In this document: one piece after another, positions 12,470 through 59,146 of the stretch
Layout: every line of letters begins with the position of its first letter
Position numbering within the stretch: the first letter of the stretch is position 1
Origin: Haliotis rubra
Taxonomy: Eukaryota
Length of the DNA stretch: 64,000 nt
Direction of reading: 5' to 3'
Assembly: GCF_003918875.1 (NCBI RefSeq)
Contig: NW_025766525.1
Span: 438,865-502,864, forward strand
Program-made: the position numbers and the translations under genes
Notes under the pieces: generated by a model
Seen by the model: the letters and a program-made list of their open reading frames with translations, nothing else
Databases searched by the model: none
Told to the model about the DNA's origin: nothing

Positions 12470-12638
12470 TCACGTGGTTTTGTTGTGGAACTCTCTCTCG
12501 AGTGGAGTTAATATTTTGCACTCCACGCGGTAACAGGTGCGCGACGAGTTGCTGAGAGAGTGCGGTAATTTCAAGCACGACGTACCACGGCTGTGATATG
12601 GATACGAATATAGACTGAAACTGCGCTGTGTTGCCACC
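12470..12638 (+). promoter_or_regulatory. CpG-rich putative promoter / 5'UTR of the WDCP-like gene
   Basis: Local CpG enrichment (cacgcggtaacaggtgcgcgacgagttgctgagagagtgcggtaatttcaagcacgacgtaccacgg) immediately upstream of a perfect Kozak gccaccATGG. The TSS itself is not determinable from sequence. Confidence 0.4.
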
Positions 12639-12693
12639 ATGGAGTTAGGGAGAGCAACATTGCGCGGGAATGGACTAAATCTCCTTCTAAACG
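12639..12693 (+). CDS. WDCP: WDCP-like gene, coding exon 1 (MELGRATLRGNGLNLLLN + 1 nt, phase-1 donor gtaaga)
   Basis: ATG in a perfect Kozak context with a strong donor. The peptide joins in phase with exon 2 at 27115 (…LLLNG|IHPRHGLVWTDG…). By recollection, the N-terminus of vertebrate WDCP/C2orf44 begins MELGKGKLL…VHPIHGLAWTDG. This is unverified and needs BLAST. Confidence 0.55.
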
Positions 12694-14868
12694 GTAAGAT
12701 GTGTGAAATGTTTACTTTCATATGAACTTTGACAAGCGCAGTGGCATGTCTATTGCGTGATGTCGATCTGAACGGCCCATCATTTGGTGAGTTTCCAGTT
12801 TGTAGATGTCTGTGTGAACGAGTAGAGATGATGCTGGCATCAGTTATAGGCCTGTCAGAGTGTTGTATCAAGTCTCTGCTAGCTGTCAATGTACAGTTTA
12901 CACTGAAACCTAACCTATCATTGATTGACAACATTTGTCATCAAATCTGATAGCCATCTCCGTTCTCAGCTACTAATCGGAGAACGGCTTTTTTGTGTAT
13001 TTTCACAGGTTTGAATTGCTGGTGTTGTTACATCTTAGTTAATAAAATAGTTCTACAAGGCCTACATCTATTCAAAACATTGACAGTGTTGATTTGTAAA
13101 AATGTCCCGAGCGTACTTTACAAACTTCTAACTTGTGTGTATTAACAAGTGTATCAGCAATTCAGACAAATCTTGTGTGAAGTGTGTGCTGCAGACATAT
13201 CAAGTGAATGTCCAGTAGTATAGCCCACCAGACCTGTCATTATTGTAGTGCAACATTGTTTAAAAGTGTGTAGATGTTGGGGGTGCTCAAGTGGTTCTAC
13301 ATTGAATATACTGTGATAGCAGGTGTCGTGGGGTGGTGTCAAGTGATCATCGATAATTAATTCACAGCAAACACATTAATTCAAATTTGTAATGATGATT
13401 GACAAGTTGCCCTCCTCAAATCCAGGAAATAGATATTCTTCTATTACAAGGTATGCAGGCCTATATGTTATTTGCCGTGAAACAAGTGAGTCACCAAATC
13501 AACAATTCAGTATGTTTTTTATTTCATTAATTATATTATTCACTGTGATGACTACTTCCTCATACTTACAGAGACTGAAAGTAACGAAAATCACAAATCT
13601 ATTGATTCAAATTCAAAACCTGTTTTTAATATGTTGTTTTCAAACTGTACTGTGTAGCACAGAGCTGGAATGAAAATGAGTTCCGGAGTGGAGTGCCCAG
13701 CTGTAGAGGGTGACCTGTTATGTAGACAATAGACACACTTCCACCAAGAATGTTAATGCTGTATTGTTTTTTACTTGTTGCCAAGCAACTGTTCAGACAT
13801 ATGGACCTGCTAGCCGTGTAAGCAGGCATGGGTACATCAGGCTCATGCATCATCTGTCACAGGTATTGTTGACTTACAGGGTCCATTGTATAATGTGTGG
13901 TGGATTTAACTTGCAATGTTTGTCAAGTTTTAATTAGTTTAATTAGTTTGACATCATGAGGATGACTACTGCTTTCCCTGCTATGCATTACTGAATACTC
14001 CAGAAAGATTTTCCAGTGTCCCTTTAGGAATTAAAGTGTGGCAACAAGAAGACTTTTGTACCCAAACTTAGTGAATGTCATCTGGTCGTGTGCTAGATAG
14101 TAAGTGGCCGTAGTGTGTATGTGACATAAAATATGATCTCACTCACTCACTGTAGTGTATATGTTTTTCTCATTCTCCTGGGGTGGTTGGTTTATGAGTG
14201 AATTTCCTGTGTATATTTTATCTTTGTCCATATGACAACATGCTTGTGTGTGACATCATGAACTCAGCTGTGAGACCTGCATGACAAGCATTTGGATTCA
14301 AACCATACCAGCAGGCCAGACAGGCTACCACATGCAAGATGGGTCTCCCTAGCATTTGTTCAGACATCAACACCTTTACTCCCTAGGACCCCAAACACTC
14401 TCACAGAATTCTCATTGGATTTCATTTTTATGGCTTTTTGTAGGTATCTATTTTTTCTCTAAAAAATACAAGGATTGGCATATGCTGAGTGAACTCACAG
14501 GGGATCAGGTTATATATGTTTGATTTATTGTTTGTGATCCCCTTTTGTCAATGTGACACTGTCCCAGTTATGTGGAGTGTGTGTACACTGGGTGTATGAA
14601 TGGAGATGTGAGACGCTCTCGGAGGTTGAAGTATAAATCTTCACTTAGCGTAGAGGGCGTGTCCTGGGACCCTCCGACAGTGATGGGAATGGATGAGTAA
14701 TTCTTTTAACATGACAGTGGTATTCCAAGGAGTACGTGAGGACTGCTTGTTGTTTGTTTACAACGGTGGAATTCCTATAAATCTCTATCATGTCTCTGTG
14801 GCCGGCACTCATTCAGTGTCTCTGTATTTTGTTTGGGGTTATTTTCTGTTGGATTATGTTTGATATAA

Positions 14869-15015
14869 GTCAGATAACAGGTTACATGAAACAGTATTCT
14901 TTAACAGAACAGTTAATCTCCTCTTAAAAGATTGAGTTAAGTATTAATTCACTCTTTCAAGAGGAGATTTACCGTTCTGTTAAAGAATACTGTTTCATAT
15001 AATTTGTTATCTGAC
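14869..15015. repeat. 147 bp near-perfect palindrome (foldback/MITE-like hairpin)
   Basis: Arm 14869-14912 (gtcagataacaggttacatgaaacagtattctttaacagaac) is the RC of 14974-15015. The central part (aatctcctcttaaaag…cactctttcaagaggagattt) is itself palindromic. Confidence 0.8.
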
Positions 15016-17374
15016 TGAAATCAAGCATAATCCAGCCTGGTACTCTGTAGTTATGTAAGTTACTATATGATACTTCTGTACTGAGATGATGATGTATGAT
15101 ACCAGGTGTCCAGCCTCTGTCAGTGTTCATCACTGCTGGCTCCTGTCAGACTGTTCGTCTAAACTGACACCATCAGTTTCAACCAGGAAGAAGTTGTTAC
15201 TTTGGATAATTAATTAAAAGAAAATCTTAACTTGAGCTTTGTGAAGTGCAAGGGAACTTGTCATGTGTGTTGTGATGTACAGTTCTGTAACAGTCAAGGA
15301 CACTTGTCACCGTGATTGATACATGAAATCAGGGTCCCTAATAATCGATTCAGATAAGTTAAGCGTCTTAATGTTTGCCTGTAGTGACAGAGTTTACATG
15401 ACGCCAGTTACACACAGTTCATATAATGCAAGCTTTCCCACTGAATCACCCTGGAATAACAAAATAAGGATCTTCTTCTCTGAAGAAGCAGTGACAGATA
15501 AGTTGACTGAGAGCAGCTGACTTTTATGCTGTTATTAAACAGCCCTGCCCCATGTGTAAGACTGAAAGAATGCTGCATCCCTTAGAAGTGAATATACATG
15601 ATGAGGATGTTTTGTCAGAAGGTCACTTATCTTACATTGTTTGTTCTGTAGTGTATGAAAACACAGATTGAATGATAAATGTGACACTGTGATCTACCCA
15701 GGAAGGGGAACATTCTCAGGTGTACCAAATGTAACACAATTCATGTTTTGACTGCAAAGATATGTCTCAACTAGTCTGAACCAAATAATGGTGTTCCCAA
15801 GCAGGAATAAAAAACTCATTTTATCAAATTATTCCTTAAGTAAGGCTGTGGCCGTGGATATACTATCAACAGGAGATGATGTGTAGTTCTACTGTATTGA
15901 ACATGTTGACTGCACGTGAAAATATATCTGAAGTTTAGAAAATCTGAATTGCAAACAAAATATTCTCCCTGTAATTAATGGGCGTCATGTCAATTACAGA
16001 AGCGTGAAATTTCACTGTCAAAATTGGGACTAAATCATTTTGTTCACAACCCTTTGTAAATCCCTGGGTTTAAGTTGTGTTGTGATGTTTAAGTAGAAGA
16101 AACAGAATTTATCTATATTTGACATTATTTTGTATGAACCTTAGCTTCTGAGATGTTGTCAGATACATGTATTATTATGGCTGTAAGAGGGCAGGCAAGT
16201 AACATGGTTGTCATGGTGACCGGGGGTTTGACATCAGGGGCTTATTGTTTCCTCATCCCAAATGAATGGCATCAAGGACTTATGAAAGCAGCCCCTATAC
16301 GCATCAGGGAGACTGGGATTAAGTGGCGAGGAGATTGAGACTGGGATTACGAACAACTGTAGCCATAACGCAGATTCCTAGACAGCTATTGACAATCTCC
16401 TCCAGCTGTTTGTGTAGACTAAGGGTTGTCATAGATATGTTGACACATCAAATTGTCTTGATAACCTAACAGTTACACTACATATATTTGATAGTGAGAG
16501 AACGTTTTAGTTTTGATGGTATTTTGAAACTGTTAACTCTTCAGGCACTGTATTTTGTGGCTGTAGACAGGGTTTCAGGTCTCTTCACTTTCTAGGACAT
16601 TCTTGTCATAGAAGATGTCCCTAAAAATATTGATATCTTTGGATAACAAGAAGACAAGATGTCCTGTCTGAATTTGCTGCTGTTCTGGTGGTGCTTGTCT
16701 CCAACTAAATAGTGTCAGTGTGACTGAATTATTCCGTCAACATTATCTCTTGTGTTCTCTTATTATCAACAGTACTAACATACTTAGATGACATTGATTG
16801 ATGGCAGAATGTTTGAGTATTGTAAGTAAAATATTGATTGACTGTGATCTTTTCAGTACTTGATTAGAGTGTTTAAACATTGGTATGGCATGACCAGGGA
16901 TCTAAAACAGTTGTAAGTGTATACATGCATCTTGTTGATGTGTTATGTAATCAAGTTGTAAGTCGTAACAGTAAATCCACATTTAATTTCTGCAGGTGTT
17001 AGACACTTGAGTAAGTCTAGGTGTATAATTACCTGCTTCATGGTGTAAGCAAGGGATAGGGTGGATTGTATTATTTAAGCATGTTTACCTGAACTATAGG
17101 CTTCATTGTGGATTAGGCTCGTGGCCCGTAGATATTTTAAGAGGAAATTCTCATTTGGTGTTGAGTAGAGCGGAACTGTTACTCTGGTATTTGAAATATT
17201 CGCGTGTAACAATGTGTCGGCCTCGTCTGATGTGGGTTGATAGTGAAAGGTGCTGCTGCAGATAGTGAAACACGTGGATACATGATACACGTGGATACAC
17301 GATACACGTAGAAGTTAGTTGTGTTTTATCAATATTCCAGTAAATCCAGGCATGGCAAACCAGGAATCATCTTC

Positions 17375-58547: not shown

Positions 58548-58647
58548 GTCAGGTTGTTGAAATACTGCAGCAGTTAGACATGTGTCCCTCGTTTATATAT
58601 CGACACAGAAACACTGATTCGTTTCATCAAGGGTCAGCTAAGGAGGG

Positions 58648-58817
58648 GCAGTGGAGTAGTCTAATGGTTAAAGCGTCCCCTCGTTACGCTGAAGATCCAG
58701 ATTGGATTCCCCACATAGGTACAATGTGTGAAGTACATTTCTGGTGTCCCTCGCGGCTATATTGCTGGAATATTGCTAAAAGTGGCGTAAAACCATACTC
58801 ATTCACTCACTCACTCA
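58648..58817 (+). mobile_element. tRNA-derived SINE family A copy
   Basis: ggcagtggagtagtctaatggttaaagcgtcccctcgttacgctgaagatccagattggattcccc…ctggaatattgctaaaagtggcgtaaaaccatactcattcactcactcactc. Confidence 0.75.
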
Positions 58818-58949
58818 ACTTAGGATGGGTGTTTAAATTTAGGGAGTTATTTGGACCAAGTATTTTCATAAACATTAAATATAAAAACATGATATTCTCA
58901 GTTAGTGGTTAGTCTTGCATCACGTGTATTCAGATGTGTAATGTTGTAG

Positions 58950-59146
58950 GAGTTGTCCCCCCTTTGTTGTCAGATGGTGACCCATGTGTTCTTGGTGCTA
59001 ACATCGATGGCTACATCCCAATGAAGTTCGGTGCTGGATCCACTCTCAGCATCACTGGAGTCCCAGCATGCATCTCTCCATCCTCACCAAGGGACACAAA
59101 CGGAGTGCTAGACAAGGATCCAGTGTCAGGAGCCAGCAGGTGCTAG
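58950..59146 (+). CDS. WDCP: WDCP-like gene, terminal coding exon 16 (G|GVVPPLLSDGDPCVLGANIDGYIPMKFGAGSTLSITGVPACISPSSPRDTNGVLDKDPVSGASRC*)
   Basis: Acceptor tgtaatgttgtag|G in phase with exon 15, with a TAG stop at 59144-59146. Recollected WDCP C-terminus has …LLSADSEGFIPLTF…. Confidence 0.55.

What the first reader, a model, noticed from the sequence alone, without database searches (positions are those of the whole stretch)
12470..59146. A single 16-exon WD-repeat and coiled-coil gene (WDCP/C2orf44-like) spans about 47 kb of the window
Sixteen segments with canonical AG/GT boundaries translate, mostly in one frame each, into peptides that chain in phase. The chain is MELGRATLRGNGLNLLLNG-IHPRHGLVWTDGKAIY…GEFE-…NVQSLHWSVDVDSDTSFLCAIHKQNVTVWKV…IPQ-GCLWHPRKDILCLL…-GRITCGTWSEDGQRLVLCVGTVVL-VYIWPNIE…-LDGSITSIVSLSHDSLVCAT(E)LPLESLCKQRDMFVVP-…-SLVQDTSQLVVIRLHDK…GVLVPDVLTHE-…-Ser-rich linker-KDQIALQKKIDMLSQ-…KYQSPEQP-EKVKVIYETSDGHTL…-…LLSDGDPCVLGANIDGYIPMKF…*. 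From memory, vertebrate WDCP (C2orf44) shares many of these blocks in the same order: MELGKGKLL…VHPIHGLAWTDG, LAVQHKKHVSVWQL, LPQGCVWHPKSAIL, GRIHCACWTQDGLRLVVAVG, ATELPLDKICGL, GILVPDLIA, RPKGICFL, IIYQKP…VEKRAVLLCDGKL, LLSADSEGFIPLTF. A mechanistic role of WDCP is not established here, so any well-supported orthologue would be worth having. The first intron is about 14.4 kb.
Basis: partly seen in the sequence, partly recalled or inferred. Interest (0 to 1): 0.55.

Follow-up and report, generated by a model that had tools for sequence, protein, structure and literature searches.

The report
Abalone WDCP gene with a frameshift
The window holds the blacklip abalone (Haliotis rubra) copy of WDCP, a conserved but poorly understood scaffold-type gene that public databases already annotate; the only unusual point is a 13-base insertion in exon 7 that breaks the reading frame in this assembly.

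Summary
The 16-exon gene is real. All 15 introns are GT-AG, and the start codon sits in a strong context (gccaccATGG, 12639). The stop is at 59144-59146 and intron 1 is 14,421 nt.

The product is a WDCP family member (Pfam PF15390, 253.8 bits against a cut-off of 25.3). It aligns end to end with Lottia WDCP (E 2e-169).

The gene is not new. [quoted passage not shown] The window is therefore abalone, not vertebrate.

As written, the CDS is 2176 nt. It shifts frame after codon 218 and stops at codon 230 (TAA 50214-50216).

Three other Haliotis species lack the insertion. dN/dS against H. rufescens is 0.06 downstream of the site, so this is not an old pseudogene. The insertion is either an assembly or polishing artefact or a private null allele; I could not tell which.

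An AlphaFold model of the 88%-identical H. rufescens orthologue shows four parts:
- an N-terminal beta-propeller, about seven blades;
- a disordered Ser-rich linker;
- one long helix;
- a small C-terminal domain.

About 37% of the gene span is minisatellite arrays. The finding is ordinary and already known.

The parts
12639..12693 (+). Coding exon 1 (ATG in gccaccATGG; MELGRATLRGNGLNLLLN + first base of G). The 5' UTR extent upstream is unknown.
   Evidence: The N-terminus aligns from residue 1 with the Lottia, Capitella and dolphin proteins. An in-frame stop lies at 12594-12596.
27115..27232 (+). Exon 2 (IHPRHGLVWTDGKAIY...LGEF, ends GA|gtatgt)
35301..35461 (+). Exon 3 (D-NVQSLHWS...NVQPIPQ)
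41247..41361 (+). Exon 4 (GCLWHPRKDILCLL...FPQLE)
44601..44673 (+). Exon 5 (SGRITCGTWSEDGQRLVLCVGTVVL)
45732..45799 (+). Exon 6 (VYIWPNIETSISDFTPAAWKVP)
50117..50242 (+). Exon 7 (GLDGSITSIVSLSHDSLVCAT / ELPLESLCKQRDMFVVP), read in two frames because of the insertion
50178..50190 (+). 13-nt insertion CATGAGTGCGACC (placement is ambiguous within the 8-nt direct repeat GTGCGACC at 50170-50177 and 50183-50190). It shifts the frame after codon 218, and a premature TAA follows at 50214-50216.
   Evidence: There is a clean 13-column gap against H. rufescens exon 7. The insertion is absent from the H. asinina, H. rufescens and H. cracherodii proteins.
51135..51250 (+). Exon 8 (DVVSSSEDRAING...SLLNLERNPQ). 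It corresponds to a low-confidence loop inside the propeller.
53605..53727 (+). Exon 9 (SLVQDTSQLVVIRLHDK...GVLVPDVLTHE)
54297..54392 (+). Exon 10 (PRTNSVIVGGNNQSLLQIFTFLGEELHKVSDI)
54732..54909 (+). Exon 11 (QLEKHQRPKGSCRL...LIRYFPIKL)
55189..55724 (+). Exon 12, 536 nt: Ser-rich, predicted-disordered linker (DKSHLRNSF...LALLVNSQ)
56549..56595 (+). Exon 13 (KDQIAALQKKIDMLS), core of the predicted long helix / coiled coil
57144..57202 (+). Exon 14 (QAVENTSCIFPTKYQSPEQP)
57717..57848 (+). Exon 15 (EKVKVIYETSDGHTL...ATVELIM), first half of the C-terminal domain
58974..59146 (+). Exon 16 (DGDPCVLGANIDGYIPMKF...SGASRC, TAG 59144-59146)
   Evidence: The acceptor was chosen by homology (ELII-DDDPMVL in Lottia) and is the same as in the RefSeq model.
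41000..41266 (+). 66-bp unit repeated 4 times in tandem. Each unit carries the exon-4 acceptor (gtgatgcag) and the first 19 nt of exon 4, and only the last copy continues into the exon.
   Evidence: motif GATGCAGGATGT at 41041, 41108, 41174, 41240; this motif does not occur in the H. rufescens locus, which has one diverged acceptor there

Best explanation
This is the Haliotis rubra orthologue of WDCP (C2orf44). It is one protein-coding gene of 16 coding exons spread over 46.5 kb on the + strand.

What the repaired protein looks like (720 aa):
- An N-terminal beta-propeller of about 400 residues, roughly seven four-stranded blades. One disordered loop within it is encoded by exon 8.
- A Ser-rich disordered linker of about 170 residues (exon 12).
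- A single helix of about 34 residues (exons 12-14), the 'coiled coil'.
- A conserved C-terminal alpha/beta domain of about 75 residues that ends in NIDGYIPxKF (exons 15-16).

Most likely mechanism (inferred, not shown here): a non-enzymatic scaffold. The propeller and the C-terminal domain bind partners. The helix drives self-association, as reported for human WDCP.

State of the gene in this window: the reference sequence is NOT translatable end to end. A 13-nt insertion in exon 7 shifts the frame inside blade 5 and gives a stop at codon 230. That would yield an unclosable 4.5-blade fragment and probably a transcript degraded by nonsense-mediated decay.

Why this is not an old pseudogene: every other exon, splice site and codon is intact, and the gene is under strong purifying selection on both sides of the lesion.

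My estimates for the insertion:
- consensus or polishing artefact of a highly heterozygous assembly built from 30x Nanopore plus Illumina reads: about 0.5;
- private or segregating loss-of-function allele of the sequenced animal: about 0.45;
- fixed pseudogenisation in H. rubra: 0.05 or less.
For: - Gene model: 16 exons, all introns GT-AG.
- Family: Pfam PF15390 at 253.8 bits against a cut-off of 25.3. Full-length alignment to Lottia WDCP, E 2e-169. Collinear 44-sequence alignment with invariant W65, H80, W87, G112, W115, P117, W158, G162, L165, W178, G356, L640, F654, P679 and F682.
- Identity to the annotation: 720 of 720 residues match XP_046570895.1 [Haliotis rubra], which RefSeq flags LOW QUALITY and which carries 4 extra residues (RPMS) exactly at the insertion.
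- The insertion is seen directly in the sequence and as a 13-column gap against H. rufescens DNA.
- H. asinina, H. rufescens and H. cracherodii read ...SLVCATELPLESL....
- All 16 exons are in order in the H. rufescens locus.
- dN/dS against H. rufescens is 0.09 upstream (200 codons) and 0.057 downstream (293 codons) of the lesion.
- The AlphaFold2 model of the 88%-identical H. rufescens protein has pLDDT above 90 over most of residues 1-405. Residues 415-578 are disordered, 580-613 form a helix, and 629-702 form a strand/helix domain.
- Foldseek against the PDB finds seven-bladed WD40 propellers: aladin, WDR4, CIAO1, Cdc20 and Bub3, with TM-score normalised to the target of 0.5-0.66.
- Assembly method and high heterozygosity: PMC6774278.
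- Self-association and Hck binding of human WDCP: Yokoyama & Miller 2015, Biomed Rep 3:9. This is cited in PMC4695188; its content is from my own knowledge because the paper is not held.
Against:
- The Pfam WD40 repeat profile does not match at E <= 0.1.
- The biochemical role is extrapolated from one study of the human protein, which is only 26-29% identical.
- Nothing here separates an artefact from a real allele. A complex non-homopolymer insertion of 13 nt is not a typical Nanopore error, which argues somewhat for a real variant. Polishing of heterozygous indel sites argues the other way.
Confidence: 0.95

Rival explanations
1. The locus is a fixed unitary pseudogene in Haliotis rubra: the 13-nt frameshift is the inactivating lesion and the gene no longer makes WDCP in this species.
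For: As written, the CDS is out of frame after codon 218, with a stop at codon 230. RefSeq had to alter the sequence to obtain a protein ('LOW QUALITY PROTEIN').
Against: There is a single lesion. The other 2,163 coding nt, the start and stop codons and the 15 GT-AG introns are intact. dN/dS downstream of the lesion is 0.057, as low as upstream. Three congeners have intact genes. Any pseudogenisation would have to be extremely recent.
Confidence: 0.04
2. The 13 nt are removed or bypassed during expression, by a very short intron or by programmed +1 ribosomal frameshifting at GAC-C-GAG. The genomic sequence would then be correct and still yield full-length WDCP, with or without 4 extra residues.
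For: The reading frame resumes perfectly after the insertion. Skipping one base would give VCAT-HECD-ELPLESL (read from the sequence).
Against: No 13-nt window across the 8-nt repeat starts with GT and ends with AG. The nearest GT...AG pair spans only 18 nt, far below any animal intron. There is no known frameshift signal, and three congeners simply lack the 13 nt.
Confidence: 0.01
3. The segments do not form one gene. They could belong to two adjacent genes (an N-terminal propeller gene and a C-terminal gene), or exon 1 at 12639 could be spurious and the gene could start near 27 kb.
For: Intron 1 is long (14.4 kb). tblastn alone does not pick up the 18-residue exon 1. Some database entries are N- or C-terminal fragments (P0002, P0004, P0006).
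Against: Full-length single proteins with the same order of blocks exist in molluscs, an annelid and vertebrates. Exon 1 aligns from residue 1 (MELG...L..G.N.L) and sits in a strong start context. The orthologous exon 1 lies 43 kb upstream of exon 2 in H. rufescens. No other gene was found in the introns or flanks.
Confidence: 0.01

Closest known systems
[quoted passage not shown]
   Same: It is the same gene. All 720 residues of my repaired model are identical to it, with the same 16-exon chain and the same first and last exon choices.
   Different: RefSeq repaired the frame by dropping one base, so it keeps 12 of the 13 inserted nt as four extra residues (VC-RPMS-ATELPL). Congeners show that all 13 nt are extra.
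WDCP-like of Haliotis asinina (XP_067675634.1), H. rufescens (XP_048239358.1 / XP_046335582.2) and H. cracherodii (XP_071113391.1)
   Same: They are orthologues. Against my repaired model, 670, 637 and 627 alignment columns are identical, in that order. H. rufescens has the same 16 exons in the same order.
   Different: None has the 13-nt insertion. The H. rufescens gene spans 79.5 kb with a 43-kb first intron. The exon-4 acceptor repeat motif of the window does not occur in H. rufescens.
Vertebrate WDCP / C2orf44 (e.g. dolphin P0010; the human protein is an ALK fusion partner and Hck substrate)
   Same: Same Pfam family and the same order of conserved blocks: MELG..HGLxWTDG, PQGCxWHP, CxCWxxDGxRL, ELPL, GxLxPD, RPKG, helix, LLxxGxLxL, GYIPxxF.
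   Different: - Only 24-29% identical overall.
- The linker is not alignable.
- Gene structure differs sharply: dolphin and a frog encode residues 1 to about 612-632 in one exon, against 14 exons here. In dolphin the two 3' introns fall at about the same positions as the last two abalone introns.
- Hck binding was not examined in molluscs.
Aladin (AAAS) and other seven-bladed WD40 propellers (WDR4, CIAO1, Cdc20, Bub3)
   Same: The predicted fold of the N-terminal 400 residues is the same. There are weak sequence hits to the aladin propeller: Pfam PF25460 at 24.8 bits, and PDB 7wkk_O at E 0.021.
   Different: The score is far below the aladin family cut-off (171.1 bits). None of these has the linker-helix-C-terminal domain arrangement. 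This gene is not a member of those families.

Membership tests
WDCP (Pfam PF15390; vertebrate C2orf44 orthologues) | Sequence match to the family profile above the curated cut-off | tested here: met
   253.8 bits against a cut-off of 25.3, E 4.6e-75, on the repaired 720-aa protein. All homologues found carry PF15390.
WDCP (Pfam PF15390; vertebrate C2orf44 orthologues) | Full-length, collinear alignment with recognised WDCP proteins, including both termini | tested here: met
   Residues 1-692 align to Lottia 1-636 (E 2e-169). Residues 1-399 and 636-690 align to dolphin WDCP.
WDCP (Pfam PF15390; vertebrate C2orf44 orthologues) | N-terminal WD-repeat / beta-propeller region | tested here: met
   This was tested on a proxy: the AlphaFold2 model of the 88%-identical H. 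rufescens protein has about 27 strands over residues 1-403 at pLDDT above 90. Foldseek matches seven-bladed WD40 propellers. The Pfam WD40 repeat profile itself does not match at E <= 0.1.
WDCP (Pfam PF15390; vertebrate C2orf44 orthologues) | Coiled-coil segment near the C-terminus that mediates self-association | tested here: inconclusive
   A single predicted helix spans 580-613 in the proxy and corresponds to CDQLALLVNSQKDQIAALQKKIDMLSQAVENTS, starting at residue 574, here. Oligomerisation cannot be tested with these tools.
WDCP (Pfam PF15390; vertebrate C2orf44 orthologues) | Uninterrupted open reading frame across the spliced exons | tested here: not met
   The CDS as written is 2176 nt. 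It is frameshifted after codon 218 and stops at codon 230. It is intact only after removal of 13 nt. This concerns this assembly or allele, not family membership.
WDCP (Pfam PF15390; vertebrate C2orf44 orthologues) | Transcript evidence that the exons are spliced as modelled | not testable with these tools
   No H. rubra transcripts were found in the protein collection. Support is indirect: identity with the RefSeq model and conservation of all 16 exons in H. rufescens.
WDCP (Pfam PF15390; vertebrate C2orf44 orthologues) | Binding to and tyrosine phosphorylation by the Src-family kinase Hck (reported for human WDCP) | not testable with these tools
   This is known only from Yokoyama & Miller 2015 (reference seen; the paper is not held).
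Aladin seven-bladed propeller (PF25460) | Profile match above the cut-off | tested here: not met
   24.8 bits against a cut-off of 171.1.

The most novel reading that the evidence does not exclude
The 13-nt insertion is a genuine germline allele. The sequenced wild abalone would then carry, at least heterozygously, a natural null of WDCP, a gene conserved from annelids and molluscs to mammals whose cellular role is still unknown. If the allele segregates in the population, homozygotes would be natural knock-outs of an uncharacterised bilaterian gene.
Probability: 0.4. Interest if true: 0.25.

Novelty: already known. Interest (0 to 1): 0.12.

Why it matters
It matters little beyond housekeeping. 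The gene is already annotated in RefSeq for this species and several congeners, so no new orthologue is gained.

Three points are useful:
- The RefSeq protein for H. rubra carries four spurious residues (RPMS). The repair that matches the congeners is to remove all 13 nt.
- The frameshift should be checked against reads before anyone uses this locus.
- The locus gives a clear comparison of WDCP gene structure: 16 exons in abalone and similar multi-exon structures in Lottia and Capitella, against one giant 5' coding exon in tetrapods. This may interest people who study intron loss.

The cellular function of WDCP remains open, and this window does not make it more testable.

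Tried and rejected
- **Short intron.** I tried reading the 13 nt as an intron. No 13-nt window has GT...AG, and the nearest GT...AG pair spans 18 nt. Rejected.
- **Programmed +1 frameshift.** Considered and judged very unlikely (see rivals).
- **Intact-allele fragments.** I searched the 5.8-billion-protein collection for an ORF fragment of an intact exon-7 allele from H. 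rubra reads or transcripts. Nothing was found.
- **Exact-protein look-ups.** Look-ups for the H. rubra (P0015) and H. rufescens X2 (P0017) proteins were not on record. The H. rufescens X1 isoform worked.
- **PDB by sequence.** There is no solved relative, only E > 0.01 hits to aladin, syntaxin and similar.
- **RNA genes.** Rfam at gathering thresholds and tRNA scans of the whole window found nothing.
- **Other ORFs.** Pfam scans of 20 other ORFs in the flanks and introns found only two transposase HTH remnants and no second host gene.
- **Literature.** No mechanistic WDCP paper is held beyond ALK-fusion reports and a lipid-bead proteomics table. Yokoyama & Miller 2015 is not held.
- **C-terminal domain.** It could not be fold-searched on its own, so its fold is unassigned.

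Full report

The two that were not found are GEFE-adjacent wording and KDQIALQKK, which are reader errors described below.

Reading the sequence around each peptide gave unambiguous boundaries. The resulting model has 16 coding exons:
- 12639-12693, 27115-27232, 35301-35461, 41247-41361
- 44601-44673, 45732-45799, 50117-50242, 51135-51250
- 53605-53727, 54297-54392, 54732-54909, 55189-55724
- 56549-56595, 57144-57202, 57717-57848, 58974-59146

Every intron starts GT, ends AG and has a pyrimidine tract. The ATG lies in gccaccATGG, and intron 1 is 14,421 nt.

tblastn with mollusc, annelid and mammal proteins hits 15 of the 16 exons in the same order, all but the 18-residue exon 1. This is far beyond chance.

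**2.

The chain does not stay in phase.
- Exon 7 reads ...GTGTGT GCGACC CATGAGTGCGACC GAGTTGCCG....
- As written, the CDS is 2176 nt. It shifts frame after codon 218 and ends at a TAA at codon 230 (50214-50216).
- Removing 13 nt (50178-50190, or equivalently any 13-nt window across the 8-nt direct repeat GTGCGACC) restores a clean 2163-nt, 720-codon ORF. That ORF reads ...SLVCATELPLESLCKQ..., exactly as the orthologues do.

There were three smaller slips. The exon 2/3 junction gives GEFD, not GEFE (donor GA|gtatgt). The peptide is KDQIAALQKK. The last acceptor supported by homology is 58974 (ELIM-DGDPCVL; Lottia has ELII-DDDPMVL), not the AG 24 nt upstream.

**3. What it is**

The repaired protein matches Pfam PF15390 (WDCP) at 253.8 bits against a cut-off of 25.3. 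It aligns over residues 1-692 with Lottia gigantea WDCP (E 2e-169, 40% identity) and at both ends with dolphin WDCP.

[quoted passage not shown] It is identical to my model at all 720 residues. It has four extra residues, RPMS, exactly at the insertion. RefSeq evidently dropped one base and kept the other twelve.

The window is therefore from the blacklip abalone reference assembly, and the gene is already annotated.

**4. The insertion**

The proteins of H. asinina, H. rufescens and H. cracherodii all read SLVCATELPLESL. The H. rufescens locus (L001) contains all 16 exons in order. Its exon 7 aligns to the window with a single clean 13-column gap.

Nei-Gojobori dN/dS between the two species is 0.09 for 200 codons upstream of the lesion and 0.057 for 293 codons downstream. 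The part of the gene that would be untranslated in this allele has therefore been under the same strong constraint. That excludes an old pseudogene.

The 13 nt cannot be an intron (no GT...AG, too short). A +1 recoding event has nothing to support it.

Two explanations remain:
- an artefact of a highly heterozygous assembly built from about 30x Nanopore reads, polished twice with Racon and once with Pilon, merged, and purged of haplotigs (PMC6774278);
- a real loss-of-function allele in the sequenced animal.

The inserted bases look like a copy of the preceding CATGA...GTGCGACC segment with an internal deletion. Either process could produce that pattern. I could not find reads or transcripts to decide between them.

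**5. How the protein probably works**

AlphaFold2 was run on the 88%-identical H. rufescens protein with a 44-sequence alignment. It gives:
- a confident all-beta domain over residues 1-405, with about 27 strands, which I read as seven four-stranded blades closed by the N-terminal strand;
- a low-confidence loop at 235-268, matching exon 8;
- a disordered Ser-rich stretch at 415-578, matching exon 12;
- one long helix at 580-613;
- a compact strand/helix domain at 629-702.

Foldseek against the PDB finds only generic seven-bladed WD40 propellers: aladin, WDR4, CIAO1, Cdc20 and Bub3. No solved structure is related by sequence.

Conservation is concentrated in the propeller and in the C-terminal domain. 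In the propeller the conserved residues include W65, H80, W87, PQGC-W-P 110-117, C155, W158, DG 161-162, W178, PL 220-221 and RPKG 353-356. In the C-terminal domain they include L640, F654, G676, I678, P679 and F682.

The most economical reading is a non-enzymatic scaffold. Two partner-binding modules are joined by a flexible, probably phosphorylated linker, and a self-associating helix brings copies together. This agrees with what was reported for human WDCP, namely oligomerisation and binding to and phosphorylation by Hck (Yokoyama & Miller 2015; reference seen, content from my own knowledge). This step is inference.

The frameshift falls in blade 5. The product of this allele could not close the propeller, and its mRNA should be a target of nonsense-mediated decay (established rule: a stop more than 50 nt upstream of the last exon junction).

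**6. Surroundings**

No second host gene was detected in the flanks or introns, and no Rfam family or tRNA was found.

Tandem minisatellite arrays make up 34% of the window and 37% of the gene span. They account for the long multi-frame 'ORFs' at 41.4-44.1 kb and 45.8-48.5 kb.

One array (41000-41266) repeats the exon-4 acceptor and the first 19 nt of the exon four times.

**7. Comparison and verdict**

Gene structure differs between lineages.
- Lottia and the annelid Capitella share the intron-rich structure.
- Dolphin and a frog encode the first 612-632 residues in one exon.
- In dolphin the two 3' introns fall at about the same positions as the last two abalone introns.

However, the gene is already known and annotated, and the window adds nothing to the open question of what WDCP does. 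The only item needing follow-up is the exon-7 insertion. Interest is low.

Noticed in passing
window 41000-41266: A 66-bp unit is repeated 4 times in tandem. Each unit contains the exon-4 3' splice site (gtgatgcag) plus the first 19 nt of exon 4, followed by gtattag, which looks like a donor. The three upstream copies (acceptors ending at 41048, 41115, 41181) are decoy splice sites. Using one of them would add 66 nt per copy with an in-frame TAG. The repeat motif does not occur in the H. rufescens locus, which has a single, diverged acceptor there.
   Followed up: partly
window 4634-6001, 8962-10997, 22551-24349, 30902-31869, 38370-41013, 41439-43991, 44973-45659, 45817-48390, 51373-52667, 52778-53442, 57866-58549: Large minisatellite arrays with units of 19-54 bp and up to about 128 copies make up 34% of the window and 37% of the gene span. 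They cause the strong local GC skew (for example +0.48 at 38-40 kb and -0.37 at 42-44 kb).
   Followed up: partly
window 41407-44132 (- strand) and 45820-48463 (+ strand): Very long ORFs, up to 871 aa, are open in several frames at once. They lie entirely inside the 20-bp and 32-bp arrays and are repeat artefacts, not genes.
   Followed up: yes
L002 (dolphin), L005 (frog), L003 (Lottia), L004 (Capitella) compared with the window: Tetrapod WDCP encodes residues 1 to about 612-632 in a single exon. Abalone, limpet and annelid split the same region into many exons at shared positions. In dolphin the two 3' introns fall at about the same positions as the last two abalone introns. This points to loss of about 13 introns from the 5' part of the gene in the vertebrate lineage.
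   Followed up: partly
window 11951-12153 (+), 54083-54228 (+), 56632-56835 (-), 61853-61982 (-), 63850-63981 (-), plus short fragments: A SINE-like interspersed element of about 200 bp is present in at least five copies at 78-92% identity. One copy lies about 490 bp upstream of the WDCP start codon.
   Followed up: partly
window 2853-3089 and 3494-3859 (+); 62213-62482 (-): Decayed DNA-transposon remnants. One is an HTH-domain ORF (HTH_28 / HTH_38) followed by an ORF that looks like a Tc1/mariner transposase but has no Pfam hit. The other is a Tc5/pogo transposase DNA-binding domain fragment (PF03221, 26.1 bits).
   Followed up: partly
window 59147-61360: The first canonical polyadenylation hexamers after the stop codon are at 61343 (ATTAAA) and 61360 (AATAAA). 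This would imply a 3' UTR of about 2.2 kb if they are used, which is unverified.
   Followed up: no
P0071 vs P0017 (H. rufescens isoforms X1 and X2): Isoform X1 differs from X2 by a 10-residue tandem duplication (TREERDYGCV x2) in the disordered linker. H. rubra has one diverged copy.
   Followed up: no
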